In this document: positions 10-50,098 of the stretch, in pieces
How the letters are laid out: each line of letters opens with the position of its first letter
Position numbering within the stretch: position 1 is the first letter of the stretch
Origin: an uncultured Lachnospiraceae bacterium
GTDB lineage: Bacteria > Bacillota > Clostridia > Lachnospirales > Lachnospiraceae
Direction of reading: 5' to 3'
Length of the DNA stretch: 61,674 nt
NCBI GenBank assembly: GCA_964648695.1
Contig: CAZYLH010000002.1
Span: forward strand, 1 to 61,674
Notes under the pieces: generated by a model
Seen by the model: only the letters and a program-made list of their open reading frames with translations
What the model was told of the DNA's origin: nothing
Databases searched by the model: none
Program-made: the position numbers and the translations under genes

Positions 10-1287
10 ATGACAGGTGGCACAAGAAAACGTGGTTCTACATGGTATTATTACTTTGAGCTAGGAAGGGTTGATGGAAAACGCCAGCGGAAGGAAAAAG
101 GTGGGTTCAGAACCAAGAAGCAAGCGGAAGCTGCTCTGGCCCAGGCGATCAACGAATATAACAACGCCGGGGCAGTATTTGAGCCCTCTGGTATAACGGT
201 ATTTGACTATTTAGATCAATGGTATGAGCTATACTGCAAACCTAACCTGAAATATAATACGCAGGTTGGCTATCTGCGGATCATAGAAGGACATTTAAAG
301 CCTAAATTCGGAAGATACCGCCTGAAGGCCATAACTTCTGCCATATTACAGGAATATGCAAATGATCTGAAAATGAATGGCTTTTCCAAAAGCCACATTA
401 GCGGGATCCTCTCCGTGTTTGGAACTGCCATGGATTATGCGGTTGAACCGCTGCATTATTTGAACACCAACCCCATGCGCTATGTGAAATATCCCAAAGT
501 GGAAAAAGAGCCCCGTGAACGAATCGTTTTGACTTTGGAAGAGTGGCAGCGGATCATCGATCGCTTCCCCGCTGGTTCCCGGTTTCACATTCCCTTGATG
601 ATAGGCTTTTATACTGGCCTACGTATTTCAGAAGCCTTTGCCCTTACATGGGATGATATTGATTTTGAAAAGCGCACGATCACGGTTTCAAAGCAGGTCG
701 TAAAACGGAACTTTGGAGCTGATGTTCGGAAGGTGGTAGAACAGAAAGGGAAGCGGGAAATGAATGCTTCTTGGTACTTCACCACACCTAAAACCCTATC
801 TTCCAGGCGCACCGTACAATTTGGAGATACTCTTTATCAGGCATTAAGAGCAGCACAGATCGAACAGATCAAAAACGAATTGAATTATGGGGAATGTTAC
901 ACTGTTCACATCTTAAAAAAGGAATTGGACGAAAAGGGTAATGATATGTTCCGCATTGTACCCATCCAAAAATTTGTGGAAACGGAATATCCCCGTGTCC
1001 GTATGGTATGCACTGCGGAAAACGGAGATTATACTTCCACCGATTCCTTCAAATACTGTTCCCGGATCATCCACAAGGAGTTGCAGCTTGCTTTTGATTA
1101 TCATTCATTAAGACATACACACGCCACGCTTTTAATCGAGTCCGGCGCCGATGTGAAAGATGTTCAGGTAAGGTTAGGACACTCAAACATTCAAACTACG
1201 CTGCAAACCTATGTGCACGACACGGAAGTGATGGCAGCACGTTCCGTTGAACTATTTGAACAGGCAGCACGCTTTAAAATCTCATAG
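10..1287 (+). CDS. int: tyrosine site-specific recombinase (phage/ICE-type integrase with N-terminal arm-type DNA-binding domain)
   Basis: 425-aa ORF. The catalytic set is visible: GLRISEAFAL (Arg), HSLRHTHATLL (His-x-x-Arg), LGHSNIQTTLQTYVH (His...Tyr). The N-terminal KRGSTWYYYFELG...FRTKKQAEAAL is typical of integrase N-domains. Confidence 0.9.
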   Translation: MTGGTRKRGSTWYYYFELGRVDGKRQRKEKGGFRTKKQAEAALAQAINEYNNAGAVFEPSGITVFDYLDQWYELYCKPNLKYNTQVGYLRIIEGHLKPKFGRYRLKAITSAILQEYANDLKMNGFSKSHISGILSVFGTAMDYAVEPLHYLNTNPMRYVKYPKVEKEPRERIVLTLEEWQRIIDRFPAGSRFHIPLMIGFYTGLRISEAFALTWDDIDFEKRTITVSKQVVKRNFGADVRKVVEQKGKREMNASWYFTTPKTLSSRRTVQFGDTLYQALRAAQIEQIKNELNYGECYTVHILKKELDEKGNDMFRIVPIQKFVETEYPRVRMVCTAENGDYTSTDSFKYCSRIIHKELQLAFDYHSLRHTHATLLIESGADVKDVQVRLGHSNIQTTLQTYVHDTEVMAARSVELFEQAARFKIS

Positions 1288-3217: not shown

Positions 3218-5461
3218 TTACTCTAGTCTCAGCTTCGCAAATCCTGCCATCAACTTTCTTCTATCTCCGCTGTCAAAGTCAACCGTCACCACAAAATCCT
3301 TCGGCTGTTTTTCCACTTTTATGACAGTCCCAGAACCAAAGGTGGCATGTACAACCCTATCTCCCTCGCCGTAATCCAGATGGTCAAGCTTTAAGCTTGC
3401 CACATCCTTGCCAAAGCCGGGATTGGTGCCGGTGATACTGTATCTGCCAGATCTTTTTGTCCACTCTTTTGGCTCTCTGGTTTCCTTAAACTCTCTAAAG
3501 CCCTCTTTCATACCGCCGCCTTCGATTTCTATGTCCAAAAGGCCATCCGGTATCTCCTTTATAAAGCGAGATGGCTTGTGAAACCAGGTCTCGGCGTGGA
3601 TCATCCTCATTTTTGCGCCGGTGAGCGTTAGATGGTTCATCGCTCTGGTGATGCCCACATAAGCCAGTCTTCTCTCCTCCTCTATATCCTGTGGATTGTC
3701 GGAGTTTATTGCCATGCTGCTAGGAAAAAGCTCCTCCTCCATGCCGCACAGATAAACACGAGGAAACTCCAGCCCCTTTGCGCCGTGCAGCGTCATGAGG
3801 AGCACACGGTCGTCATTATCCTCAACACTGTCGATGTCAGCAATCAGCGCCACATCCTCCAAAAATCCGGCAAGCGTTGGTGCCTCGCCCATATCCTCAC
3901 ATTGCTTCTGATACTCCGCTGCTTTGCTCGTAAACTCCTGAAGGTTTTCCTTTTTCACATCAGCCTGCTCCGCGTCCAGCTTATCAAACTCCGCCTCGTA
4001 GTTGACATCACGGATAATCTCCTCTATCAGCTCGTCGATATCCATAAACTCGGCCTTTGCCCGAAGCACCCTTATCTGGTTGACAAATCCAGCTATCTTT
4101 GAAGCTGCCCGGGAGACAGAATGTATCTCATCCACCCTCATTAAAGCGTCCATAAGGCTGATACCCTCTTTTTCTGCAAACTCGGCAACATGCTCTAATG
4201 AGGTTACTCCGATACCCCTTTTGGGGACGTTTATGATGCGGCGCACCGCCAGATCATCCCGGCCGTTTGCGATAGTCTTTAGATATGCCAGTATATCCTT
4301 GATCTCCGCTCTCTGATAAAAGTTGACGCCCCCGACAATTTTATATGGGACATTTCTTAGAATGCACTCCTCCTCAAACGCTCTGGACTGCGCGTTGGTG
4401 CGGTATAAAATGGCTATGTCCTTATAGCTCTCACCGCGGCGCACGCGGCTTTCAAGGTCCGCTATAACCCCGCGCGCTTCCTGTCTGTTATCCTGATAAA
4501 GGTGATAGCTCACCCTCTCACCCTCGGGCTTATCAGACCACAGGCGCTTACTCTTTCGCCCCGTATTGTTCTTTATAATGGCGTTTGCAACTTCTAAGAT
4601 ATTCGGAGTGGAGCGGTAATTTTGCTCTAACTTTATCACCTTTGCCGCCGGAAAGTGCTTCTCAAAGCTTAGGATATTTCTGATATCTGCCCCGCGGAAT
4701 TTATAGATGGACTGATCATCATCTCCCACCACACAGAGGTTTGGATGATTTCCCGCCAGCTGGGCGATGAGCATAAACTGAACCGCGTTTGTGTCCTGAT
4801 ACTCATCCACATGTATATACTGAAAGCGCTTCTGATAATTCTCCAAAATCTCCGGAGCCTCCTTAAAAAGCTCCACCGTCTTTACCAAAAGATCATCAAA
4901 ATCAAGGGCGTTATTTTTCCTCAGCTCATTCTGATACTCATGGTAGACCATTGCCACCTTCTTTTCCCAAAATTCCGTGATAGTATTCTCATACTCTAAC
5001 GGTGAGATGAACTGGTTTTTACAGTCCGAGATCACTTTTAAAGCTGCCCTCTCCTTTATCTTCTTTGTGTCGATATCAAGCCGCTTCATAATGCCCTTGA
5101 TTAAGGTTCTCGCATCATCCGTGTCATAGATGGTAAAGCTGTTATCATATCCCAGTCTGTCAATATGGCGTCTTAAGATCCTCACGCACATTGAGTGAAA
5201 GGTTGACACCCAGATCTGAGCCGCATCTATACCACCGATGAGATTATCCACACGCTCCCTCATCTCACCCGCCGCCTTGTTGGTAAAGGTGATCGCCAGT
5301 ATATTATAGGGGTTTACTCCCTGTTCCTCGATTAGATAGGCAATCCTGTGAGTCAAAACTCTGGTCTTTCCAGAGCCAGCTCCCGCCAAAAGCAAAAGAG
5401 GGCCCTCCGTGCAAAAGACCCCCTCGCGCTGCTGAGGATTTAAGGAATCATAGATACTCAT
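3218..5461 (-). CDS. pcrA: ATP-dependent DNA helicase PcrA (UvrD family)
   Basis: AGAGSGKTRVLTHR, VDEYQDTN, GDDDQSIYKFRGA, TLHGAKGLEF, EERRLAYVGITRA; C-terminal GDRVVHATFGSGTV Tudor-like tail. Confidence 0.93.
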   Translation of the reverse strand: MSIYDSLNPQQREGVFCTEGPLLLLAGAGSGKTRVLTHRIAYLIEEQGVNPYNILAITFTNKAAGEMRERVDNLIGGIDAAQIWVSTFHSMCVRILRRHIDRLGYDNSFTIYDTDDARTLIKGIMKRLDIDTKKIKERAALKVISDCKNQFISPLEYENTITEFWEKKVAMVYHEYQNELRKNNALDFDDLLVKTVELFKEAPEILENYQKRFQYIHVDEYQDTNAVQFMLIAQLAGNHPNLCVVGDDDQSIYKFRGADIRNILSFEKHFPAAKVIKLEQNYRSTPNILEVANAIIKNNTGRKSKRLWSDKPEGERVSYHLYQDNRQEARGVIADLESRVRRGESYKDIAILYRTNAQSRAFEEECILRNVPYKIVGGVNFYQRAEIKDILAYLKTIANGRDDLAVRRIINVPKRGIGVTSLEHVAEFAEKEGISLMDALMRVDEIHSVSRAASKIAGFVNQIRVLRAKAEFMDIDELIEEIIRDVNYEAEFDKLDAEQADVKKENLQEFTSKAAEYQKQCEDMGEAPTLAGFLEDVALIADIDSVEDNDDRVLLMTLHGAKGLEFPRVYLCGMEEELFPSSMAINSDNPQDIEEERRLAYVGITRAMNHLTLTGAKMRMIHAETWFHKPSRFIKEIPDGLLDIEIEGGGMKEGFREFKETREPKEWTKRSGRYSITGTNPGFGKDVASLKLDHLDYGEGDRVVHATFGSGTVIKVEKQPKDFVVTVDFDSGDRRKLMAGFAKLRLE

Positions 5462-41091: not shown

Positions 41092-42032
41092 GCCTCGCGC
41101 ACAAAGCAGCGAAGCTTAGCACTTCTGGAGCGTGGGTTTTGCTCCATCTCCTCCTCTGTAGGAATAACTGGCTTTCGATAAGCCACATGCCCTTTTGATA
41201 CCCGCCCGCAAACGCAGACCGGAAAGTCCGAAGGACAAATGCAAGGGTTTTCATTTTTCTTAAACGCAGCCTTTACAATCCTATCCTCAAGCGAGTGAAA
41301 CGTGATGATTGAAAGCCTTCCGCCCGGCTTTAACATATCTATCATGCCGTCAATTGAATTTTCTAAAACCTCAAGCTCCCTGTTGCATGCAATCCTAAGA
41401 GCCTGAAATGTTCGTTTTGCCGGATGCCCTCCACTAATCTGCGCCTTCTTTGGCATTGCACTGCGGATAATCTCTAAAAGCTGACCGGTGGAGTTCACGG
41501 CTTGCTTTTTTCTCTCTCGCACGATTGCCCTGGCTATATTTTTTGCAAAGTGCTCCTCCCCGTAATCACGAATGATACGGTAAAGCTCCTGCTCCTCATA
41601 GGTGTTTACAATATCCGCTGCCGTAAGAGGCGCCTGCTGATCCATGCGCATATCAAGAGGAGAGTCCTCTCTGTACGAAAAGCCTCTGGCAGGGTCGTCA
41701 AACTGGTGCGATGAAACGCCAAGATCCAGTAATATTCCGTCCACAGTACAGTATCCAAGCTCATAGAGAACCTCTTTCATCCTCTCAAAATTACTGTGAA
41801 CAATCAAAACTCTTTCCTTAAACGGCTCTAAGCGGGACGATGCGGCCTCTATAGCTTCCATATCCTGGTCAAGCCCGATAAGCCTTCCCTCTCCCTCAAG
41901 TCTTTTTACAATCTCTGTAGAATGACCTGCGCCTCCGAGAGTCCCGTCCACATAAATACCGTCCGGGCGTATATTAAGGCTCTCTATACTCTCCCAAAGT
42001 AAAACTGGAATGTGTGCAAATTCCATGATCAC
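41088..42032 (-). CDS. rsmH: 16S rRNA (cytosine1402-N4)-methyltransferase
   Basis: [38 protein letters not shown]. Confidence 0.95.
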
Positions 42033-42475
42033 ATACCCTTTGAGGCAAGGGCCTTTCCACTCTCAGCCATGGAAAAACCTTCATTATAAGCCTCCCAATT
42101 TTCTGGATTCCAAATTTCTAGGTGGTCTCCCACACCTTTTACTATCACTTCCATCTCCTGTTCCATGGAAGCATATTTGCGGTGCTCCGGCGTTAGCAGA
42201 ATTCTTCCCTGCTTATCTAAATCAAGCGGTTCTGCGCTTGAGAAGACATTTCTCTGCAGCTTTCTGATATTCTCATCTGAAAAAAACGGGGTATCCTCAA
42301 ACTTGTCCATGAGGGCCTCAAAATCCTCCTCACGGTAGAGATTTAAGCAGTCTTCCATTCCGATCGTTACGATCACATGCTCTCCGAGCTGCTCACGCCA
42401 CTTCGCGGGCACTGCCACTCTTCCCTTGGTGTCCAGCTTATTGCTGCGCGTTCCAATCATTCGTATTGCGCTCAT
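42029..42475 (-). CDS. mraZ: transcriptional regulator MraZ
   Basis: Two SpoVT/AbrB-like halves with [10 protein letters not shown] and [22 protein letters not shown]. Confidence 0.95.
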
Positions 42476-42565: not shown

Positions 42566-42675
42566 TAGCCAAATGCGATTCTTCACATTTTTTTCGGGTA
42601 AAAAAATCGATTTCCTTGATCCTGCGCCGCAACGAAGGCTTTGAATAAGCTTCTTTTTGCGCTTCTCTTGCCATA

Positions 42676-42704
42676 TTGCGTCCTGCCTTTTTTGGTGATA
42701 TAAT
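42676..42704 (+). promoter_or_regulatory. sigmaA-type promoter with extended -10 for the helicase IV-like gene
   Basis: TTGCGT (42676-42681), 17-nt spacer, TGaTATAAT (42696-42704), 50 nt upstream of the ATG at 42754. Confidence 0.6.
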
Positions 42705-42753
42705 TAAAAACATCGAACTGACACTTAAAATTTGAGGGGTTGGATTTGAGAAG

Positions 42754-45700
42754 ATGGATACATATATAGGATTGATTTCCAAAATCTTTAAAAATAAAAG
42801 AACGACAGCCAATAAAGTCGCTGATAAGAATTCATTTAAGGATCCAAAATGCCAGAGTTTGCGAAACTTAAATGCTTATATGGACTCACTATTATCACAA
42901 AATCGCTATATTGCAAAAAGTGAATATCGCCAGGAGCTGCTTAGTGGCAAGAAAACCATTGAGTATTTTGGTGTACTTCAGAGCAGTCGGTTATTAAATG
43001 ATTTCTGTAAAAAGAACCGCCTTTCACTTTCCGCTGTCGAAAGAGCATTGTCAAAATATATGAACTTTGAAGCTCTTGTAGATAAGCATAATGAAACTTT
43101 TATTAGCCGCGCGATGATTGAAGAACAGGATTATCTGGATAATATTCTTCGTGATGTCGATCCCCAGATCAAGCTTGATGAGGATCAGCGCCGTGTTGTC
43201 CTGACGGATGAGGACTATTGTCTTGTCATTGCCGGCGCAGGTGCGGGAAAAACCACCACAGTTGCGGCAAAGGTCAAATATCTGGTTGAGAAAAAAGGCG
43301 TTAAACCCTCCCAGATTCTTGTTGTATCCTTCACCAATAAGGCCGTTCAGGAACTCCAAGATAAAGTCAACAAAGATTTGGCGATAGATTGTCCTATTGC
43401 CACCTTCCACTCAACCGGATATGCCATCTTAAGAAAGCGGTCACCGGAAAAACTTAATATTGTCGATGATTCTAAGCTATACTTTGTTTTGCAGGATTAT
43501 TTCAAAAGCTCTATATTAAAGAACGAAAGCCTCGTAAATAACCTGATTTTGTTCTTTGCCTCATATTTTGACGCTCCATATGAAGGGGACGATCTCAATA
43601 ATTTCTTCAACAAAATTGCAAAATCAAATTTTTCCACGATGCGAAGTGATCTTGAAGACTTTAAGCGAGATGTCCTTGACACCCGCACTAAGAAATCAGT
43701 TACGATTCAAAGTGAGGTATTGCGCTCCCATCAGGAGGTGGAGATCGCAAATTTTTTGTATTTGAATAATATCGACTATGAATATGAGCCGCTGTATAAG
43801 TATGATATCCTTTTATCAAGAAAGCCCTATACGCCCGACTTTATTATTCGCCAGGGCGATAGAGTTGCATATATTGAGCATTTTGGCATTACAGAGGACG
43901 GCAGAAACGATCGCTATAGCAGCGATCAGCTTGCGGCCTATAAAAGGGCTGTAAACGACAAAATCATTTTGCACAGGGACCATGGGACAGCTCTTATCTA
44001 TACCTTCTCGCAGTATTTAGACCGCAGACCCCTACTGGAGCATCTGCAGGAGGAGCTGGAAAAGAACGGCTTTGAATTACATCCCCGTTCAAACAAAGAG
44101 GTAATGGAAAAGCTTGTATCCTCTGAAGAGAGCCGTTATATAAGGAGACTCATCAGTCTGATATGCCGTTTTATCTCCAACTTTAAGGTAAACGGTTTTT
44201 CCGAGGACGAGTTTACCCGTATGTACCATTCAACCCAGAATGTGCGCACAAGGTTGTTTCTAAACATTTGCAATGACTGCTATCTGGAATATGCGCGTTA
44301 TCTGAAGGAAAATAATGCCATTGACTTCGAGGATATGATAAATGAATCCGCACGGTTCCTCAGAAAAGTCAAGGAAATGAAGCAAACCCTTGACTTCAAA
44401 TATATTATCGTAGACGAGTATCAGGATATTTCACGGCAAAGGTTTGATCTGGTGACAGCACTATCCGAGGTTACAGATGCCAAAATAATTGCTGTCGGCG
44501 ATGATTGGCAGTCGATTTATGCGTTTAGCGGCTCCGATATAACGCTCTTTACAAAGTTTGAAGAAAAAATGGGTTATGCAAAGCTTCTAAAGATTGTGAA
44601 GACCTATCGCAACTCGCAGGAGGTAATTGACATTGCCGGTAACTTTATCCAGAAAAACAAAGCGCAAATTCCAAAGGCACTAAAGTCTCCCAAAAATATC
44701 GTTGACCCTGTTATTATCTACACATATGACGGAAGCCGAAAAAGACTAAATGCCAATAATAGAAGCGGCGCAAATTACGCAATTGCACATGCCGTAGAGG
44801 TTGCGATTGAGCAGATCATTAAATTTAACAAACAGGAAGGAAAGCCTGAGAATTCTTCTATCCTACTGCTTGGCAGGTATGGCTTTGATGGTGATAAATT
44901 AGAAAAATCGGGGTTGTTTGAATACATCGCCAGGGGAAATAAACTCAGAAGCGTAAAATATCCGAGACTCAACATCACGTTTATGACAGCCCACGCCTCA
45001 AAGGGCTTAGGATATGATAATGTCATTGTTGTAAATGGGCGCAATGAGACATACGGCTTTCCTTCAAAGATTGAGGATGACCCCGTTCTTGCGTTTGTGA
45101 TCAAAGGTGATCGCTCCATCGATTACGCCGAAGAACGCCGTCTGTTTTACGTTGCAATGACAAGAACTAAGAATCGCGTTTATTTTATTGCCCCCGAGCA
45201 AAACCCCTCTGAATTTCTACTCGAGCTAAAGCGCGATTATAAAAATGTCATCCTGCGCGGTAATTGGAACGAAGAACCGCCACAAAATAATCTTGCGAGA
45301 AAAACCTGTCCCATTTGTGGTTATCCTTTGCAATTACGCTATAAAAATGCCTATGGATTACGGTTGTTTCTCTGTACTAACGATCCTGAGGTTTGTTCAT
45401 TTATGACCAATGACTATAAGGGCGGGAAGCTCTCTATTCTTAAATGTGATCGGTGCCAAGATGGCTATCTTGTCGTCAAACCAGGAATAAACAACGGTTA
45501 TTTTCTTGGATGCACAAATTACCAGAAAAACGGCACGGGATGTGGAAGTTTTATTTCTTCTACGAGTTATTATAGAATGTTCAAGCTTGAGCCTGATCCT
45601 GCTCCTGCAAAAGAGTCTGCTTCACCGTCAAATACAAGTCGGTCGGCTGGATCTAAACACAAAAAAAGCGTGTCATCATCTGCGTCAGCATCAAATGCTA

Positions 45701-46131
45701 AACAATCGTCAGAATCCAAGCACGAGGAAAGCACGGTGATAAAGGAGGCAAATGTTAAAGCGGTTATGTTCAATGATGAGGATCTGAATGACATTGTCCA
45801 TACTGTTTTGCAATGCCTCTCTCACATCAATGAGAAACATTTTTACGGCATACATTTTTTAGCAGATGTGCTTCGCGGAGCAGGCGATGGGACAAACGGC
45901 GAGCGTATTATAGAGGCTGGGTTTGACAAACTGCCGGAGTATGGAAAACTAAGCCCGATCAGTCGTGATGATGTGATTACCATCATAGGGTGGTTAATCG
46001 AAAATCACTTTATACTGAGAACAAAGCATTATAGATACCCTGTTCTTCACCTGACTTATGAGGGTATACATTATGATGAAACCATCACGGCAAATAAGCT
46101 TAAAAAGCTTCTCGCAAAATTAAATTCCTAG
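42754..46131 (+). CDS. helicase IV (HelD)-like SF1 helicase with nuclease-like insert, two topoisomerase-type C4 zinc ribbons and an RQC-like winged-helix tail
   Basis: 1125 aa. LDEDQRRVV, AGAGAGKTTT, TFHS, VDEYQD, GDDWQSIYAFSGSD, YRNSQEV, TAHASKGLGYDNVIVV, EERRLFYVAMTRTKNRVY. The RBS is weak (GAGGGG is 14 nt away), so the exact start is uncertain. Confidence 0.85.
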   Translation: MDTYIGLISKIFKNKRTTANKVADKNSFKDPKCQSLRNLNAYMDSLLSQNRYIAKSEYRQELLSGKKTIEYFGVLQSSRLLNDFCKKNRLSLSAVERALSKYMNFEALVDKHNETFISRAMIEEQDYLDNILRDVDPQIKLDEDQRRVVLTDEDYCLVIAGAGAGKTTTVAAKVKYLVEKKGVKPSQILVVSFTNKAVQELQDKVNKDLAIDCPIATFHSTGYAILRKRSPEKLNIVDDSKLYFVLQDYFKSSILKNESLVNNLILFFASYFDAPYEGDDLNNFFNKIAKSNFSTMRSDLEDFKRDVLDTRTKKSVTIQSEVLRSHQEVEIANFLYLNNIDYEYEPLYKYDILLSRKPYTPDFIIRQGDRVAYIEHFGITEDGRNDRYSSDQLAAYKRAVNDKIILHRDHGTALIYTFSQYLDRRPLLEHLQEELEKNGFELHPRSNKEVMEKLVSSEESRYIRRLISLICRFISNFKVNGFSEDEFTRMYHSTQNVRTRLFLNICNDCYLEYARYLKENNAIDFEDMINESARFLRKVKEMKQTLDFKYIIVDEYQDISRQRFDLVTALSEVTDAKIIAVGDDWQSIYAFSGSDITLFTKFEEKMGYAKLLKIVKTYRNSQEVIDIAGNFIQKNKAQIPKALKSPKNIVDPVIIYTYDGSRKRLNANNRSGANYAIAHAVEVAIEQIIKFNKQEGKPENSSILLLGRYGFDGDKLEKSGLFEYIARGNKLRSVKYPRLNITFMTAHASKGLGYDNVIVVNGRNETYGFPSKIEDDPVLAFVIKGDRSIDYAEERRLFYVAMTRTKNRVYFIAPEQNPSEFLLELKRDYKNVILRGNWNEEPPQNNLARKTCPICGYPLQLRYKNAYGLRLFLCTNDPEVCSFMTNDYKGGKLSILKCDRCQDGYLVVKPGINNGYFLGCTNYQKNGTGCGSFISSTSYYRMFKLEPDPAPAKESASPSNTSRSAGSKHKKSVSSSASASNAKQSSESKHEESTVIKEANVKAVMFNDEDLNDIVHTVLQCLSHINEKHFYGIHFLADVLRGAGDGTNGERIIEAGFDKLPEYGKLSPISRDDVITIIGWLIENHFILRTKHYRYPVLHLTYEGIHYDETITANKLKKLLAKLNS
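43705..43908 (+). other. restriction-endonuclease-like (PD-(D/E)xK-like) insert within helicase domain 1
   Basis: RSHQEVEIANFLYLNNIDYEYEPLY...YTPDFIIRQGDRVAYIEHFG. It has the Glu...PD...E-x-x layout, but no Lys after the Glu, so catalytic competence is uncertain. Confidence 0.4.
45304..45546 (+). other. two topoisomerase-type C4 zinc-ribbon modules
   Basis: CPICGYPLQLRYKNAYGLRLFLCTNDPEVC and CDRCQDGYLVVKPGINNGYFLGCTNYQKNGTGC. Confidence 0.65.
45766..46068 (+). other. RecQ RQC-like winged-helix module
   Basis: FLADVLRGAGDGTNGERIIEAGFDKLPEYGKLSPISRDDVITIIGWLIENHFILRTKHYRYPVLHLTYEG parallels the RecQ VLRG...L..yG.g...s...W...i..Li..g.l...........L.LT..g pattern. Confidence 0.5.
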
Positions 46132-46196
46132 CCCCCTTTGAAAAAAGCTTTCCAAAAGGCCTCCTGCCAAAAAAGAATCAGAAAGGAGCAATGTAT

Positions 46197-49139
46197 ATGA
46201 AGACTATTTTCCAGGAATTTCAAAAGCCCGGCATAGACAGCCGCGGCATGTTTCGCTGCTGGTTTCCGGATGCCGGTGCAGATTTAGATCGGGTTTCCCA
46301 TCAGGTTCGAAGCGTCTATGAAGCCGGATTTAGCGGCATGGAGATCGCCATGGTGCCACAGTACGCCGAATTTGACCAGCGAGAATACGGCTGGGCAACA
46401 CCTCGCTGGAAGGAAATGCTTCGCACCATTTTGCGCACAGCAGACAGCCTCCCGGAGGCTTTTAAGATCGATCTTACCATCACCGCCCACTGGCCCCCTG
46501 CGCTAAATACCATTGACCCAAACCATCCTGCAGCTCAAAAAGAACTGCGCCACACCGTCACAAAGATCACCTCAGGCGGCACTTTGGAACTGCCCCTGCC
46601 CGAAACTCGCGTGTGTGATGATGACGGCGACGATGCTGCACACTTTATCTTTACGGACACCTTCTTATGCGCCATCACAGGCACCATTGTCGGCAGGAAG
46701 GATGATAAGTACATCTTAGCGCAGGACTCCCTTCGGGATGTCTCAGAATTTGTAACCGTATTAGATAAAACTACGCCCGCAGGCATTGCTCTGGATGAAA
46801 ACCGTTTCGGTTCAAAGCCAAAGCTGGCTGACACACAGCACTACTACGCCATCGACCTTGACGCCGCCGGGATCCCCGCCTGTTCAGAAAGCGACTGGCA
46901 GGAGGGTGATACTCTGCTCTTTGCATATTTCACCCGCGGCACCGGTCAGACCCTGTCCGGCAGATCCATGCCAGAGGTTCATATGCATCTGCCAATGGCT
47001 GATAAAATGTATGCCGCCGACTACTACTCTGCGGAAGGAACCGATGCCATCATCGACGTATGGGAAAGTCAGATCCTTAACGATCCCGAAATCCGCACTC
47101 TGCTTAACAAAAACGGCGGCGCTATTTTTGAGGATTCCATTGAGCTGGCATGTGCCACCATTCCCTGGACCAACAGGTTTGCCAAGGAGTTTCGCCGCTT
47201 CCGGGGCTATGATATTCTGCCGTTTTTGCCGGTGCTGCAGAGCCTTAAAGGAAGTCCCGTCCGGTTTCTGGTGGACAGCCGCATAGAAAAGCTTCTGGTG
47301 GATGATTACTATACCACTTTAAACGACTTGTACCTGCGCGACCATGTTGAGCGGCTTAAAACCTGGACCCGTACCTTTGGCTATCAGTACCGGGCTCAAT
47401 CCTACGGCGGCGACGTAAACACCGCCGCAGCCTCATGCGTTTTAGACATCGCTGAGGGCGAAAGCCTGGGCTTTGGAGAAATGCGGGAGTTTTTCCGCAA
47501 TATTTCAGGCGGTGTCCACATGACGGGGCGGAAATTTTTCTCAGACGAGATCTTGGCTGACCTGATGAAAGGCTATGCCTTAGACTGGAAATGTGCCACC
47601 GCCACCTTTAACAGCAACTGGGCTGCCGGTGTCAACCGGGTTGTTATCCATGGTATGAGCTTCGAGAGGGAGGTCTCTGACAAGTACAACCAGTGGCCCG
47701 GCTGGCACGCATTCCAGGATACATTTGCTGATCCCTGGGGCGAACGTCAGCCGTATTGGGAGCATATAAGGAGCCTCTCCGATATGATCGCTCGGACTCA
47801 GGCGGTACTGCAGTCCGGCAAGCCGAAAATAGATCTGGCAATCTATAAGGGCCAGCGGGCCTATGGCTGTGGATATACCCGCCTGTTAGACTTTGGCTAC
47901 AGCTACGACGTCATATCAAATCCTCACTTATTCCTTCCCCAGTGCGTGGTGCAGTACGGAAGTTTATGTCCCGATGGACCGGCTTACAGAGCGCTACTCA
48001 TCGTGGATCAGGAAATGCTGCCATCATCCGCCGCCGAAAAGCTAAAGGCCTTAGCCGCTGATGGTCTGCCCATCATCTTTGTGGGACGTCTGCCAGTACA
48101 GGCTACCGGCGCATTTACACCAAACAGTAACGTCACAGATGCCGTTAAAACCATGCTTAGCATGCCAGGCGTCTTTTATGTCCGTGACTTAGACGAGGCA
48201 GTGGCCACATTAAAAACGCTTAGCATCACTGCCCGGGCTTCTTACAGAGACGTAAAACTTGAATCCATCTGCCGTGCTGATGAGAGCGGCACTTACTACT
48301 TCCTGTTTAACAATGACACGGACGATGTATCCGCCAACATTACGCTTAAAGGCTCCGGCCGTCCCGTAATTCTAAACGCCTGGACCGGTGCCATAACGCC
48401 GATCCCCTTCACTCAAGTAGAAGAAGGCGTTATGATAAATGTCTCCCTGGCATCAAAAGACGCGATGATTCTGGCTCTGCTTCCGGATGCACAGACGCCG
48501 CAGGTACGTGAAGATCTGCCATCCATTACACTTAGGGCTCTAGACACCACCGTGGAGTCCTGGGGGCCGGATGAGGATGCCGCAGTTCCAACACAGGCTA
48601 AAAGAACCACCGTTTCTTTTGGCGCTCAGCCCGTCGGCCCCTGGGATGCTCTTCCGGCTACCAAAGAGCAATTAGCAGAGCTTGGCGTGGATGGCATGCA
48701 CCATGTCTCCGGCCGCGGCTTCTACCGCACCGCTTTCTCCCTGCCCGCCTGTGACGGGGCAGTGCTTACCGTTTCCACTGGTGAGTGCATGGTGGTTGGC
48801 GGCAGCATCAATGGCAAAAACCTGCCTGCAATAAACCAGCGCAGCGGACAGGTGGATCTTACCGGTCTGGTACATGAAGGGGACAACCAGCTAGAGCTGG
48901 TGTTAGCCACCACCTTAATCAACCGCCTGCGAATTTCTCATCCACTTTTTGACGGCAATGGAGATATCCCCGCGCCGCCGTCCGGCCATGACGCTAACAG
49001 CGATGATACTATTGGCAATGAGGACTATGAGCTGCCCGGTGCTCCCGCGGTTATACCAACGCCCACCTTTGGGCCTTTTACCTACGGTTTGTACAGTGCA
49101 GTGATCACGCCGTATGTGGCGTTAAAGAATCTGAAGTAA
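46197..49139 (+). CDS. large intracellular glycoside hydrolase (GH106-like / rhamnosidase-type with C-terminal galactose-binding-like jelly roll); specificity unknown
   Basis: No signal peptide. N-terminal SRGMFRCWFPDAG motif, C-terminal GRGFYRTAFSLP...INGKNL...GDNQLELVL sugar-binding-like domain. The second ATG (46197) has AAAGGAG plus 8 nt. Family assignment is from memory only. Confidence 0.5.
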   Translation: MKTIFQEFQKPGIDSRGMFRCWFPDAGADLDRVSHQVRSVYEAGFSGMEIAMVPQYAEFDQREYGWATPRWKEMLRTILRTADSLPEAFKIDLTITAHWPPALNTIDPNHPAAQKELRHTVTKITSGGTLELPLPETRVCDDDGDDAAHFIFTDTFLCAITGTIVGRKDDKYILAQDSLRDVSEFVTVLDKTTPAGIALDENRFGSKPKLADTQHYYAIDLDAAGIPACSESDWQEGDTLLFAYFTRGTGQTLSGRSMPEVHMHLPMADKMYAADYYSAEGTDAIIDVWESQILNDPEIRTLLNKNGGAIFEDSIELACATIPWTNRFAKEFRRFRGYDILPFLPVLQSLKGSPVRFLVDSRIEKLLVDDYYTTLNDLYLRDHVERLKTWTRTFGYQYRAQSYGGDVNTAAASCVLDIAEGESLGFGEMREFFRNISGGVHMTGRKFFSDEILADLMKGYALDWKCATATFNSNWAAGVNRVVIHGMSFEREVSDKYNQWPGWHAFQDTFADPWGERQPYWEHIRSLSDMIARTQAVLQSGKPKIDLAIYKGQRAYGCGYTRLLDFGYSYDVISNPHLFLPQCVVQYGSLCPDGPAYRALLIVDQEMLPSSAAEKLKALAADGLPIIFVGRLPVQATGAFTPNSNVTDAVKTMLSMPGVFYVRDLDEAVATLKTLSITARASYRDVKLESICRADESGTYYFLFNNDTDDVSANITLKGSGRPVILNAWTGAITPIPFTQVEEGVMINVSLASKDAMILALLPDAQTPQVREDLPSITLRALDTTVESWGPDEDAAVPTQAKRTTVSFGAQPVGPWDALPATKEQLAELGVDGMHHVSGRGFYRTAFSLPACDGAVLTVSTGECMVVGGSINGKNLPAINQRSGQVDLTGLVHEGDNQLELVLATTLINRLRISHPLFDGNGDIPAPPSGHDANSDDTIGNEDYELPGAPAVIPTPTFGPFTYGLYSAVITPYVALKNLK

Positions 49140-49190
49140 AAAACACCGCTGTAATGCCTTTATAAGATAGGCGTTACAGCGGTGTTTTAC
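49138..49190. terminator. bidirectional terminator between the convergent GH and lgt genes
   Basis: 17-bp stem AACACCGCTGTAATGCC (49142-49158) pairs with GGCGTTACAGCGGTGTT (49170-49186, one mismatch). It is flanked by A-run and T-run and overlaps the lgt stop. Confidence 0.75.
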
Positions 49191-50098
49191 TGCTCCTCTG
49201 CTATTTTCTCCTGAGGCTCCTCCCTAGGCACTTCCTCCACTCTATTCTTTGCCCTTGCGTGGCCAATAGCCAGAGCAGCAATCCCCACAAGTACCAGTAT
49301 GGCGGATAAAATCTGTGAAACAGCCCAGTCTGTGTTCCAGAGCTTTAGCTGATCCGTCCTAAGGCCCTCTATAAAGAAACGCCCCAGACCGTAGCCCACA
49401 AAGTAGATGTACAAAAGCTCACCCTTAAATTTTCTGTGCTTTCTGTAGATGAGCATAAAGACAAGCACGCACAGGTTCCACACGGATTCGTAAAGAAAGG
49501 TCGGATGCACCTGAATATACTCTGCGGCAATATCCTGAAGATTTGCCTCCATGGCTTCCTCAAGCTCCTGGGTTATCAGGCTGGAATTTACAAGCGTCCT
49601 CTTAATCCTCATGGCAAACAAACTGTCCGTATATCCCCCGAACGCCTCACAGTTAAAGAAATTTCCCCATCTGCCGATTGCCTGCCCAAGTATCAGCCCG
49701 CAGATTCCGCAATCCGCCAGCTGCCAGGGACTGATCTTTTTCACCCTTACAAAGACTGCAAGAACGATCAGGCTCATAAGCACCGCGCCGTAGATGGCAA
49801 GTCCCCCTCCTCTTATGTTAAAGATCTGCAACGGATTTTCAGAATAGTAATCCCATTCAAAGATCACATAGTAAATGCGAGCGCCGATGATACATAAGGG
49901 TACCTCAAAGATGGCAAGATCATAGATGATTTCATCCCCCATGCCCTCCAGCTTTGCAAGCTTTGCCGCCAGGGCAATCCCTGCCAGAATACCTATGGCG
50001 ATTATGATCCCATAGAACATGATATCAAATCCAAATACGCTGATGTAGTTCTTTAAATTTTCAATCTCAATGCCAAGATTCACAAATTCGATATCCAT
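49187..50098 (-). CDS. lgt: prolipoprotein diacylglyceryl transferase
   Basis: GRWGNFFNCEAFG signature, seven hydrophobic helices, charged C-tail. Confidence 0.92.
   Translation of the reverse strand: MDIEFVNLGIEIENLKNYISVFGFDIMFYGIIIAIGILAGIALAAKLAKLEGMGDEIIYDLAIFEVPLCIIGARIYYVIFEWDYYSENPLQIFNIRGGGLAIYGAVLMSLIVLAVFVRVKKISPWQLADCGICGLILGQAIGRWGNFFNCEAFGGYTDSLFAMRIKRTLVNSSLITQELEEAMEANLQDIAAEYIQVHPTFLYESVWNLCVLVFMLIYRKHRKFKGELLYIYFVGYGLGRFFIEGLRTDQLKLWNTDWAVSQILSAILVLVGIAALAIGHARAKNRVEEVPREEPQEKIAEEQ

What the first reader, a model, noticed from the sequence alone, without database searches (positions are those of the whole stretch)
42676..46131. Stand-alone, AT-rich helicase IV-like gene fusing an SF1 helicase, a nuclease-like insert, two topoisomerase-type Zn ribbons and an RQC-like tail
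Seen directly in the sequence:
- (a) A 1125-aa ORF sits alone on the + strand between the mraZ promoter and a glycoside hydrolase.
- (b) All SF1/UvrD motifs are intact: AGAGAGKTTT, TFHS, VDEYQD, GDDWQSIYAFSGSD, YRNSQEV, TAHASKGLGYDNVIVV, EERRLFYVAMTRTKNRVY.
- (c) The pre-helicase segment HNETFISRAM...DYLDNIL...LDEDQRRVV resembles the helicase IV clade as I remember it.
- (d) A ~70-aa insert (nt 43705-43908) between motifs Ib and II has an E...PDF...IEH layout like restriction-endonuclease folds.
- (e) After motif VI come two CxxC...C...C ribbons (45304-45546), a ~50-aa Ser/Lys-rich linker, and ~100 aa resembling the RecQ RQC winged helix (45766-46068).
- (f) Composition: hand counts on three 60-nt lines inside the gene (43441, 44401, 45361) gave 19, 24 and 23 G+C. 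Flanking lines gave 32 (rsmH, 41641) and 38 (GH, 47401).
- (g) The gene has its own TTGCGT-17-TGaTATAAT promoter.
- (h) A housekeeping pcrA is already present at 3218-5461.

Inference: this is a horizontally acquired or fast-evolving single-gene nucleic-acid surveillance enzyme combining unwinding, possibly cleavage, and two extra DNA-recognition modules. Single-polypeptide helicase-nuclease anti-phage proteins exist in other families, but I cannot place this domain order in any named system.
Basis: partly seen in the sequence, partly recalled or inferred. Interest (0 to 1): 0.75.

Follow-up and report, generated by a model that had tools for sequence, protein, structure and literature searches.

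The report
Mobile helicase with built-in junction nuclease
This gene encodes a horizontally acquired DNA helicase with a phage-T7-endonuclease-I-like DNA-cutting domain inserted into its motor and three extra DNA-binding modules at its end; it belongs to a large family that I found described nowhere, and its cellular role is not established.

Summary
ORF 42754-46131 (+) encodes a 1125-aa SF1A UvrD-type helicase with intact motifs. Its core is closest to helicase IV but fails the helicase IV equivalog cut-off.

About 225 aa sit where E. coli HelD has 56. Of these, aa 312-446 form a confidently modelled PD-(D/E)xK domain (pLDDT 94.6). Its profile finds T7 endonuclease I as the top four PDB sequences. 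E328, D362 and E375 are essentially invariant in 91 diverse relatives. The canonical Lys position is always aromatic, while H376 and K403 are about 98% conserved.

Two four-Cys topoisomerase-type Zn ribbons and an RQC winged helix follow.

The gene is foreign at this locus:
- It has the lowest GC and GC3 of 44 window ORFs.
- Relatives with the same flanking genes have lgt and mraZ 414 bp apart, with no helicase.
- None of 80 homologous loci shares the window's neighbours.
- Copies 93-98% identical occur in species whose flanks range from 38 to 55% GC, and homology stops at the gene borders.

The 'fast-evolving' alternative is wrong, and a defence role is plausible but unproven. I rate it a new variant of a known kind: a helicase-nuclease with an unusual nuclease type and placement.

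The parts
42672..42748 (+). Promoter/leader: -35 TTGCGT at 42676-81, extended -10 TGaTATAAT at 42696-704. This is the left edge of DNA homology with relatives' cassettes.
   Evidence: Sequence. It is 77-78% identical to the promoter upstream of the HTH_17-helicase module in L007 and L006. The -35 hexamer matches the consensus at only 3 of 6 positions.
42754..46131 (+). Helicase-nuclease gene, 1125 aa.
   Evidence: Nucleotide homology to relatives runs 42745-46130 and stops at the stop codon.
42841..43143 (+). N-terminal all-helical domain (aa about 30-130) of unknown function. Only its last helix and linker resemble the pre-helicase segment of helicase IV.
   Evidence: AF2 pLDDT about 85-89 with six helices. 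No Pfam hit. No significant PDB profile hit. HelD BLASTP alignment starts at aa 111.
43171..43458 (+). Helicase domain 1A, first part (aa 140-235): Walker A AGAGAGKTT (K166), motifs Ia and Ib (TFHS).
43468..43674 (+). Helical segment (aa 239-307) at the position of domain 1B, leading into the nuclease domain.
   Evidence: AF2 secondary structure H239-253, H258-271 and H281-307, with low to moderate confidence.
43687..44091 (+). T7-endonuclease-I-like PD-(D/E)xK domain (aa 312-446). Candidate active-site residues are E328, E345, D362, E375, H376 and K403. F377 occupies the place of T7 K67.
   Evidence: Profile against PDB: T7 endo I entries 2pfj, 1m0d, 3cae and 1fzr are the top 4 (E 1e-4 to 1.4e-3). 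Pfam Phage_endo_I matches weakly in 11 of 13 members. AF2 pLDDT 94.6 with alpha-beta-beta-beta-alpha-beta-alpha order. Foldseek returns PD-(D/E)xK nucleases almost exclusively. Residue conservation in 91 diverse representatives.
44092..45243 (+). Rest of 1A and 2A (aa 447-830): motifs II (VDEYQD), III (GDDWQSIYAFSG), IV (YRNSQ), V (TAHASKG) and VI (VAMTRTKNRVY).
   Evidence: 31% identity to HelD 350-674.
45307..45396 (+). Zn ribbon 1 (C852, C855, C874, C881).
   Evidence: Cys invariant in 62 homologues. One of the two matched stretches of Pfam Zn_ribbon_Top1.
45445..45543 (+). Zn ribbon 2 (C898, C901, C920, C930).
   Evidence: Cys invariant. Best Zn_ribbon_Top1 stretch is aa 897-923. Relatives score 75-78 bits against a cut-off of 32.
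45586..45729 (+). Ser/Lys-rich, probably disordered linker (aa 945-992).
   Evidence: Translation. pLDDT below 50. Variable in length and sequence among homologues.
45766..46068 (+). RQC-type winged helix (aa about 1005-1105).
   Evidence: Pfam RQC 37-42 bits against a cut-off of 23. AF2 pLDDT 72-92. The top PDB sequence hits are the RQC regions of RecQ entries 4tmu and 1oyw, but they are not significant (E 0.08-0.15).

Best explanation
The gene encodes a horizontally acquired, accessory helicase-nuclease.

Architecture (shown):
- The motor is an SF1A UvrD-type helicase of the helicase IV clade.
- A T7-endonuclease-I-like PD-(D/E)xK domain sits where UvrD/PcrA-type helicases have domain 1B.
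- Two topoisomerase-type Zn ribbons, a flexible linker and an RQC winged helix follow the motor.

Proposed mechanism (inferred from what these domain families do elsewhere):
- The RQC domain and Zn ribbons bind duplex/branch DNA and single-stranded DNA respectively.
- This loads the enzyme on forks, D-loops or four-way junctions.
- The motor translocates 3'-5' on ssDNA.
- The nuclease domain sits beside the strand-separation point and cuts the branched or unwound DNA using a metal site formed by E328, D362 and E375, with H376 and K403 replacing the canonical lysine.

Proposed role (inferred from distribution):
- The gene belongs to the flexible, mobile gene pool of gut Clostridia.
- It most likely acts in conflicts between hosts and mobile DNA, by destroying or processing replicating or recombining foreign DNA.

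Not shown: catalytic activity, substrate and biological role.
For: Identity of the parts:
- Pfam, NCBIfam and PDB sequence searches.
- BLASTP against E. coli HelD.
- The insert profile finds T7 endonuclease I as the four best PDB sequences, aligning E328 with E20, PD362F with PD55F and E375 with E65.
- The insert model has pLDDT 94.6 and the canonical core topology.
- Foldseek returns almost exclusively PD-(D/E)xK nucleases. Against PDB these are Bax1, the R2 endonuclease, Hjc, RecU and McrC. Against BFVD there are 36 hits at E<=1e-3, including DUF2726, Vsr-type homing endonucleases, a junction resolvase and Endonuclease I.

Selection on the active site:
- In 91 representatives with median 41% identity, E328 and D362 are 100% conserved, E375 99%, E345 98%, H376 98% and K403 98%.

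Branch-DNA theme:
- Relatives with the same helicase-plus-insert core carry RQC, HRDC or Zn_ribbon_Top1 as interchangeable accessories.

Foreign origin:
- Lowest GC and GC3 of 44 window ORFs.
- The gene is AT-richer than its flanks in 63 of 70 loci.
- Relatives L083 and L084 have SASA-lgt-[414 bp]-mraZ-rsmH with no helicase.
- No shared neighbours in 80 loci.
- Helicases 93-98% identical lie in species with flank GC of 38-55%, and homology ends at the gene borders.

Conflict-type or mobile context in a minority of loci:
- Type IV restriction enzyme, HNH, Fic (PDC-S04), TnpV, serine and tyrosine recombinases, primase.
- Plasmid homologues lie next to DUF262, GIY-YIG or Lit genes.
Against: - No experiment or publication on this family was found.
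- The canonical Lys of the (D/E)xK motif is absent (F377), so the nuclease could be inactive.
- The window sequence is below the Pfam Phage_endo_I cut-off (15 bits against 29.1).
- Foldseek PDB E-values are weak (best 4.6e-3).
- No PADLOC model specific to this protein matches.
- Neighbourhoods are too diverse to show defence-island enrichment, and I ran no background comparison.
- In this window the neighbours are housekeeping genes (dcw cluster, lgt) and a glycosidase.
- The full-length model is poor (pLDDT 59.9), so the position of the nuclease relative to the DNA path is inferred from the insertion point, not seen.
Confidence: 0.55

Rival explanations
1. It is a mobile-element maintenance gene rather than host defence. 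The helicase-nuclease works for the element that carries it: it unwinds and resolves branched replication or recombination intermediates of an integrative or conjugative element or plasmid, as T7 endonuclease I does for T7 DNA. The window copy would be a stranded remnant.
For: - In the closest clade the gene is preceded by an excisionase-type HTH_17 gene under a shared promoter.
- In several loci it is flanked by TnpV, DUF6809, a DnaG-like primase and a large serine recombinase.
- Distant homologues with the insert lie on 51 plasmids, 6 typed conjugative and 28 mobilizable.
- The window copy has lost the HTH_17 gene and lies among housekeeping genes.
Against: - Only a minority of loci show element genes. 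The primase occurs in 5 of 80 and TnpV in 3 of 149 immediate neighbours.
- Homology between loci stops at the gene borders rather than spanning an element.
- The gene is kept intact and highly conserved in chromosomal contexts with no recombinase nearby.
Confidence: 0.22
2. It is an accessory host DNA-repair or replication-restart enzyme. On this view it is a helicase IV-like paralogue that processes stalled forks or recombination intermediates, possibly together with RecQ and topoisomerase III.
For: - The core is closest to helicase IV.
- RQC, HRDC and Zn-ribbon accessories come from the RecQ and topoisomerase toolkits.
- RecQ is the immediate downstream gene in several Lachnospiraceae loci, and a topoisomerase gene is the neighbour in two.
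- A plasmid homologue lies near UvrX.
Against: - There is no conserved position, and the gene is absent from relatives at this locus.
- Its composition is atypical and near-identical copies occur across species. These are hallmarks of accessory, mobile genes, not of a repair core.
- The genome already has pcrA.
Confidence: 0.13
3. The endonuclease-I-like domain has lost catalysis and serves only as a branch- or junction-recognition module, or as a separation wedge, for a pure helicase or translocase. This can combine with any of the biological roles above.
For: - The position equivalent to T7 K67 is aromatic in all 92 sequences examined. From my own knowledge, not a tool result, K67 is needed for T7 endonuclease I catalysis.
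- PDB entry 2pfj, a DNA-bound T7 endonuclease I (title), aligns with Ala at that position.
- The domain sits at the 1B position, which in UvrD/PcrA contacts DNA (family knowledge).
Against: - All three acidic metal ligands are 99-100% conserved, as are H376 and K403. Such conservation is hard to explain for a purely binding module.
- Replacement or relocation of the catalytic Lys is, as I recall, a known PD-(D/E)xK variation. I did not check this in the superfamily survey (PMC3424549).
Confidence: 0.2
4. It is a HelD-like RNA-polymerase recycling factor. On this view the helicase-derived ATPase binds RNAP through its N-terminal domain and the 1B-position insert.
For: - HelD proteins are helicase IV/UvrD relatives in which the 1B position holds an unrelated insert, and they spread by HGT among gut Clostridia (PMC8655204).
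- Foldseek gives weak hits to M. smegmatis HelD (E 8e-3 to 3e-2).
Against: - The insert is a nuclease fold, not a clamp arm.
- The N-terminal domain is modelled as six short helices rather than one long coiled-coil arm.
- The accessory domains are DNA-binding (Zn ribbons, RQC).
- At 1125 aa it is far longer than the HelD proteins listed in that paper, which are about 670-870 aa.
Confidence: 0.04

Closest known systems
E. coli DNA helicase IV (HelD, b0962)
   Same: - It is the best NCBIfam model.
- It is 30-31% identical over the pre-1A segment plus 1A, and over the rest of 1A plus 2A.
- Both end the motor with the same ...NPSxF motif.
- Both are SF1A helicases.
   Different: - The score is below the equivalog cut-off (300.7 against 543).
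- The HelD N-terminal 170 aa are not shared.
- About 225 aa, including a nuclease domain, replace 56 aa of HelD.
- About 300 extra C-terminal residues (Zn ribbons, linker, RQC) are present.
- The gene is accessory and mobile rather than a fixed chromosomal gene.
Bacteriophage T7 endonuclease I (gp3; PDB 1m0d, 2pfj)
   Same: - The profile-to-sequence match covers the core.
- The S..E...(I/V)...L....I.(Y/F)EYE ... YTPDF ... (I/V)E..G pattern is shared, including three of the four catalytic residues.
- Both have the PD-(D/E)xK fold.
   Different: - The Lys of ExK is replaced by an aromatic residue, and a His follows the Glu.
- Here it is one domain inside a helicase. T7 endonuclease I is a free, domain-swapped homodimer (PMC3424549).
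- The window sequence is below the Pfam cut-off.
UvrD-type motor plus PD-(D/E)xK nuclease enzymes: AddA/RecB/AdnB
   Same: - An SF1A motor and a PD-(D/E)xK nuclease share one polypeptide.
- They are structural matches of the motor and weaker NCBIfam matches.
   Different: - Their nuclease is RecB-type and C-terminal, and they act in heteromeric end-resection complexes.
- Here the nuclease is endonuclease-I-type and inserted at the 1B position.
- No partner subunit gene is conserved next to it.
Helicase/nuclease anti-phage systems (Gabija GajA-GajB; Nhi; Hachiman)
   Same: - PADLOC GajB (UvrD-type) models match the motor, at E down to 1e-47.
- The logic of a helicase coupled to a nuclease is shared.
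- Both are accessory, mobile genes.
   Different: - There is no GajA-like neighbour. The flanking genes are mraZ and GH106.
- No Nhi or Hachiman model appears among the 25 best of 50 PADLOC hits, all of which are GajB or RTasHel.
- The nuclease type and its placement differ.
- No defence phenotype is known.
Archaeal XPB-Bax1 helicase-nuclease pair
   Same: - Bax1 is the best structural match of the insert domain in the PDB (E 4.6e-3, TM 0.53).
- It is a PD-(D/E)xK nuclease positioned by a helicase.
   Different: - They are separate polypeptides.
- XPB is an SF2 helicase.
- Similarity is at fold level only (10-18% identity).
RecQ accessory domains (RQC, HRDC) and topoisomerase I C-terminal Zn ribbons
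   Same: - RQC is above the Pfam cut-off here.
- HRDC or Zn_ribbon_Top1 are above cut-off in relatives.
   Different: They are attached to an SF1A motor rather than to RecQ (SF2) or a topoisomerase. The RecQ Zn-binding domain is absent.

Membership tests
SF1A UvrD/Rep/PcrA helicase superfamily | Conserved motifs Q, I, Ia, II-VI and a profile match above the curated cut-off. | tested here: met
   Motifs read in the translation. Pfam UvrD-helicase 177 bits against cut-off 23, and UvrD_C 53 against 25.6. PDB UvrD/PcrA/Rep at E 1e-36 to 1e-20.
DNA helicase IV (NCBIfam NF008276 equivalog) | Whole-protein score at or above the curated equivalog cut-off (543 bits). | tested here: not met
   300.7 bits. 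It is the best-scoring model but below the cut-off.
DNA helicase IV (NCBIfam NF008276 equivalog) | Helicase IV N-terminal domain. | tested here: not met
   BLASTP against E. coli HelD aligns only from HelD residue 172. No Pfam N-terminal helicase IV model was hit, even at E<=10.
PD-(D/E)xK nucleases, T7 endonuclease I family (Pfam PF05367) | Restriction-endonuclease-like alpha-beta-beta-beta-alpha-beta core. | tested here: met
   AF2 model with pLDDT 94.6 and elements H15-26, E30-33, E52-56, E59-69, H79-98, E103-109. Foldseek matches are almost exclusively PD-(D/E)xK nucleases.
PD-(D/E)xK nucleases, T7 endonuclease I family (Pfam PF05367) | Acidic catalytic residues (T7 E20, D55, E65). | tested here: met
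   They align to E328, D362 and E375. These are 99-100% conserved in 91 diverse relatives.
PD-(D/E)xK nucleases, T7 endonuclease I family (Pfam PF05367) | Catalytic Lys of the (D/E)xK motif (T7 K67). | tested here: not met
   The position is F377, and it is F, Y or W in nearly all relatives and never K.
PD-(D/E)xK nucleases, T7 endonuclease I family (Pfam PF05367) | Pfam gathering score (29.1 bits). | tested here: not met
   The window domain scores 15 bits (E 0.019). 11 of 13 diverse inserts match weakly, with best E 2.8e-5. A profile of the inserts reaches T7 endonuclease I in the PDB at E 1e-4.
PD-(D/E)xK nucleases, T7 endonuclease I family (Pfam PF05367) | Domain-swapped homodimer with composite active sites. 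| not testable with these tools
   Only monomer models were made. In the model the first helix packs on its own sheet.
RQC domain (Pfam PF09382) | Profile match above the gathering score. | tested here: met
   37.5 bits in the whole protein and 42 bits as a fragment, against cut-off 23. It is present in almost all close homologues.
Topoisomerase-type C4 Zn ribbon (Pfam PF01396) | Four Zn-ligand Cys per ribbon and a profile match above the gathering score (32 bits). | tested here: inconclusive
   Both sets of four Cys are invariant. The window fragment scores 29.1 bits in 2 stretches, just under the cut-off. Relatives score 32.5-78 bits, and many close homologues carry a precomputed PF01396 hit.
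Gabija (GajA+GajB) | A GajB-type helicase encoded next to a GajA ATPase-TOPRIM nuclease. | tested here: not met
   GajB models match the motor, but the neighbours are mraZ and GH106. No GajA model is among the 25 most frequent PADLOC families for the 149 neighbours of homologues.
Any catalogued anti-phage system (PADLOC-DB v2.0.0) | A specific model match beyond the generic helicase core. | tested here: not met
   Of 50 matching models the 25 shown are all GajB or RTasHel UvrD-type models. The library dates from 2023, so later systems are not covered.
HelD RNAP-recycling factors | N-terminal secondary-channel coiled-coil arm and a clamp arm at the 1B position. | tested here: inconclusive
   The 1B position holds a nuclease fold instead of a clamp arm. 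The N-terminal domain is modelled as six short helices. Foldseek hits to HelD are weak.

The most novel reading that the evidence does not exclude
The helicase-plus-endonuclease-I-like core, found in at least 1460 protein clusters across Bacteria and some Archaea, is an unrecognised single-protein immune or selfish module. On this reading it is a motor-coupled junction nuclease that recognises branched replication or recombination intermediates of invading DNA through swappable RQC, HRDC or Zn-ribbon sensors and cleaves them. It spreads between genomes as a one-gene cassette, or a two-gene cassette with HTH_17.
Probability: 0.3. Interest if true: 0.75.

Novelty: new variant of a known kind. 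Interest (0 to 1): 0.55.

Why it matters
Helicase-nuclease fusions drive DNA end processing (RecBCD, AddAB) and several anti-phage systems. This family puts a Holliday-junction-resolvase-type nuclease at the 1B position of an SF1A motor, where UvrD/PcrA-type helicases contact DNA. It combines that core with RecQ-type and topoisomerase-type DNA sensors.

If the nuclease is active, the enzyme would be a compact branch-specific 'unwind and cut' machine with a non-canonical PD-(D/E)xK active site (E-D-E-H plus a distal K).

The family is widespread in gut Clostridia and on plasmids of other phyla, and it moves between species. Its function could therefore bear on phage, plasmid and conjugative-element dynamics in the gut. 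It might also yield a useful structure-specific nuclease.

Tried and rejected
- **Insert-only homology search.** It returned only fragments of the same family and no other architectures, so it added little.
- **Full-length AF2 model.** Overall quality was poor (pLDDT 59.9). Its Foldseek search only recovered UvrD, PcrA, Rep, AdnB and RecB, so inter-domain geometry cannot be used.
- **N-terminal domain.** It has no Pfam hit and no significant PDB profile hit, so it remains unassigned.
- **Zn-ribbon segment against PDB sequences.** Nothing was found.
- **Exact-sequence look-ups.** The mraZ look-up found only the same strain and the GH106 look-up found nothing. Presence/absence therefore rests on more distant relatives (rsmH 67% identical).
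- **Insertion scars.** There are no flanking direct repeats around 42.3-49.3 kb and no tRNA genes in the window. The only recombinase found is a tyrosine integrase at 10-1287, 41 kb away. The insertion mechanism is unknown.
- **Phage origin.** Only one near-full-length hit was found, a 4.3-kb unannotated faecal contig. I rejected this as evidence for a phage gene.
- **'Many conjugative plasmids carry it'.** The 1308 plasmid hits are mostly generic UvrD-like helicases. Only 51 plasmids carry the insert.
- **Literature.** Five searches and two papers read found no description of this architecture.
- **Partner protein c1.** It has no Pfam, PADLOC or PDB match.

Full report
**1. What is in the sequence**

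The ORF runs 42754-46131 on the + strand and encodes 1125 aa. It diverges from mraZ (42029-42475, -), which heads an mraZ-rsmH-ftsL-like-PBP cluster. A GH106-family glycoside hydrolase (46191-49139, +) follows 59 bp downstream with no terminator-like site between them. The next gene is lgt (49187-50098, -). A canonical pcrA with a tudor domain is at 3218-5461.

**2. Domain assignments**

*Motor.*
- Pfam gives UvrD-helicase (177 bits), split into aa ~140-235 and 437-605, and UvrD_C.
- The best NCBIfam model is DNA helicase IV, at 300.7 bits against an equivalog cut-off of 543.
- BLASTP against E. coli HelD aligns aa 111-237 with HelD 172-293 and aa 464-826 with HelD 350-674, at 30-31% identity.
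The remaining N-terminal 110 aa are not HelD-like.
- That N-terminal region is modelled as a confident helical domain with no Pfam or PDB relatives.
- Window aa 238-463 stand where HelD has 56 residues.

*Insert.*
- Distant homologues from plasmids of Paenisporosarcina, Vibrio, Acinetobacter, Pseudomonas and a haloarchaeon conserve the insert.
- A profile of 13 diverse inserts finds T7 endonuclease I as the four best PDB sequences (E 1e-4 to 1.4e-3).
- That alignment pairs E328 with E20, the YEYE strand, PD362F with PD55F, and E375 with E65.
- Pfam Phage_endo_I matches 11 of 13 members weakly.
- AlphaFold2 on aa 312-446 gives pLDDT 94.6 and pTM 0.87, with the alpha-beta-beta-beta-alpha-beta-alpha order of the restriction-endonuclease fold.
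- Foldseek against the PDB returns almost only PD-(D/E)xK nucleases: Bax1, the R2 endonuclease, Hjc, RecU, cap-snatching endonucleases, McrC and MunI. The scores are weak, with the best E at 4.6e-3.
- T7 endonuclease I is not among the 50 listed PDB fold matches. It is a domain-swapped dimer (PMC3424549), which may be why.
- Foldseek against predicted viral structures gives 36 hits at E<=1e-3 with TM up to 0.71. They include DUF2726, Vsr-type homing endonucleases, a junction resolvase and Endonuclease I.

*Active site.*
- I examined 91 representatives with median 41% identity.
- S325, E328 and P361-D362-F363 are invariant.
- E375 is 99% conserved, E345 98%, H376 98%, K403 98% and H407 97%.
- The residue aligned with T7 K67 is aromatic in nearly all of them and never Lys.
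- The metal-binding triad is therefore under strong selection, but the site is non-canonical. Activity is likely, not shown.

*C-terminus.*
- The two four-Cys ribbons are invariant in 62 homologues.
- Pfam Zn_ribbon_Top1 is just under its cut-off here (29 against 32 bits, 2 stretches) and well above it in relatives.
- RQC is above its cut-off.
- The top PDB sequence hits of the tail are the RQC regions of RecQ, but they are not significant.

**3. The family**

The full architecture is common.
- More than 4200 proteins match at E<=1e-10. The best 120 are 70-82% identical and of the same length.
- 309 species-representative genomes, mostly Oscillospirales and Lachnospirales, encode a relative.

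The insert alone matches 1460 clusters at 50% identity. All nine diverse representatives I sampled are UvrD-type helicases carrying the same expansion. Their accessory domains vary:
- Zn_ribbon_Top1
- RQC
- an N-terminal HRDC
- an N-terminal IrrE-type peptidase plus HTH

None of these proteins carries a name more informative than 'UvrD-helicase domain-containing protein' or 'DNA helicase-4'. I found no paper describing the architecture.

**4. Is it native to this locus? No.**

- *Composition.* GC is 41.0% against 47.7% for the rest of the window. It has the lowest GC and GC3 of 44 ORFs, with z about -2.65 for each.
- *Presence/absence.* Metagenome relatives L083 and L084 (rsmH 67% and aminotransferase 85% identical) have aminotransferase...SASA-lgt-[414 bp]-mraZ-rsmH-ftsL-PBP. 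They have neither the helicase nor GH106. In the window, 6.7 kb carrying both + strand genes separates lgt from mraZ.
- *Synteny.* None of 80 homologous loci has mraZ, rsmH, GH106 or lgt within 8 kb. Immediate neighbours span 145 Pfam families in 149 ORFs.
- *Composition elsewhere.* Across 70 loci the gene is AT-richer than its flanks in 63, by 5.2 points on average and up to 19.
- *Recent transfer.* Helicases 93-98% identical occur in different species whose flanks range from 38 to 55% GC. DNA homology between such loci ends at the gene, plus 180-330 bp upstream.
- *Window borders.* Homology to relatives runs 42745-46130, plus a promoter block at 42672-42748.

The window copy is about 81% identical to its nearest relatives and somewhat GC-enriched compared with them (41% against 36-37%). 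This fits an older acquisition.

No target-site duplication or tRNA gene marks the insertion. The only recombinase found in the window is a tyrosine integrase 41 kb away.

**5. Context of homologues**

Recurrent neighbours are as follows.
- An unannotated ~195-aa protein overlaps the helicase stop codon in 17 of 80 loci.
- An HNH_4 protein occurs in 14 loci.
- RecQ occurs in 8 loci.
- A PLD-ResIII-DUF3427 protein, which PADLOC scores as a type IV restriction enzyme (E 1.7e-185), occurs in 7 loci.
- A DnaG-like primase occurs in 5 loci.
- TnpV, DUF6809, Fic (PDC-S04), serine and tyrosine recombinases, a Schlafen-like helicase with GIY-YIG, and topoisomerase also appear.

Plasmid homologues sit next to GIY-YIG and DUF262 genes, or next to Lit and IS elements.

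In the closest clade a 60-aa HTH_17 (excisionase-type) gene lies between the conserved promoter and the helicase. In the window this ORF is missing.

These contexts fit the flexible, conflict-related gene pool. They do not discriminate between defence and element maintenance, and I could not run a background-controlled enrichment test.

**6. Mechanism proposed**

Shown:
- an intact SF1A motor;
- a nuclease-fold domain with a conserved acidic triad at the 1B position;
- DNA-binding accessory domains;
- horizontal mobility.

Inferred:
- The enzyme loads on ss/ds junctions or branched DNA through the RQC domain and Zn ribbons.
- It translocates 3'-5'.
- It cleaves at or near the branch.

Biological role, with my estimates:
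- host-mobile DNA conflict, with defence the leading reading (about 0.3-0.4);
- element-serving processing of branched intermediates (about 0.2);
- accessory host repair (about 0.13);
- an RNAP-recycling HelD-like role is unlikely.

**7. Verdict**

- 'Fast-evolving' is wrong.
- 'Surveillance/defence' is plausible but untested.
- The domain combination is not unique to this gene. It marks a large family for which I found no description.
- I class it as a new variant of a known kind (a helicase-nuclease) and rate interest at 0.55.

Noticed in passing
window 42672-42760; compare L007 7718-7983 and L020 7795-7974: Relatives have a 60-aa HTH_17 (excisionase-type) gene between a conserved promoter and the helicase. 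The window keeps the promoter and the helicase, but the ~187-bp ORF is missing. The junction lies at a repeated TTTGAGRRG motif. In L003, L005 and L015 the small gene matches only in part.
   Followed up: yes
window 42754-42774: The ATG start used by relatives corresponds to ATA in the window. The window ORF starts at an ATG 12 nt further upstream, giving a different N-terminus (MDTYIGL against MGL).
   Followed up: partly
L004 11324-11911, L012 3323-3910 and 15 other loci: A ~195-aa protein with no Pfam, PADLOC or PDB match lies immediately downstream of the helicase, usually overlapping its stop codon by 4-9 bp, in 17 of 80 loci. It is a likely functional partner and is absent from the window. 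Its C-terminal half may resemble the C-terminal extension of the neighbouring RecQ proteins, but the match is not significant.
   Followed up: partly
L001-L025 (e.g. L020 7685-11320 against L007, L005, L003): Helicases 93-98% identical at protein level occur in different species with flank GC of 38-55%. DNA homology ends at the gene, plus 180-330 bp upstream. This is a one- or two-gene cassette with no recombinase attached, and how it moves is unexplained.
   Followed up: partly
window 46191-49139 and 49140-49188: The GH106 gene has the highest GC of the window's ORFs (53.6%). It is also absent from the lgt-mraZ interval of relatives L083 and L084, so it may be a second, separate insertion. 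A 20-nt inverted repeat at 49140-49188 looks like a terminator shared with the convergent lgt.
   Followed up: partly
window 10-1287 (+): This ORF is a tyrosine integrase (Arm-DNA-bind_4, SAM-like and Phage_integrase domains) with low GC (44.5%) at the window edge, 41 kb from the helicase. It may mark another integrated element.
   Followed up: no
L071 7957-10431: A second, shorter (824 aa) helicase paralogue lies directly downstream of the main one. Its insert is only 37% identical and has EYFG instead of EHFG.
   Followed up: no
P0263, P0303: Relatives with the same helicase-plus-insert core carry other N-terminal modules. P0263 has an HRDC domain. P0303 has an IrrE-type M78 peptidase plus a sigma-70 region 4 HTH.
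   Followed up: partly
L001 (JAFTWG010000006.1) and L008 (CAVGCY010000040.1): Contigs binned as 'Alphaproteobacteria bacterium' and 'Bacteroidaceae bacterium' carry helicases about 95-98% identical to those of Clostridia bins. This reflects either mis-binned contigs or cross-phylum transfer.
   Followed up: no
L066, L067, L069, L077 (downstream of the helicase): The recurrent gene order is helicase-RecQ-HNH_4 protein, followed in three of these four loci by a small ~100-aa protein with no Pfam match. Other loci have a PLD-ResIII-DUF3427 (type IV restriction-like) gene followed by a NUDIX gene. These may be conserved multi-gene islands in Lachnospiraceae.
   Followed up: partly
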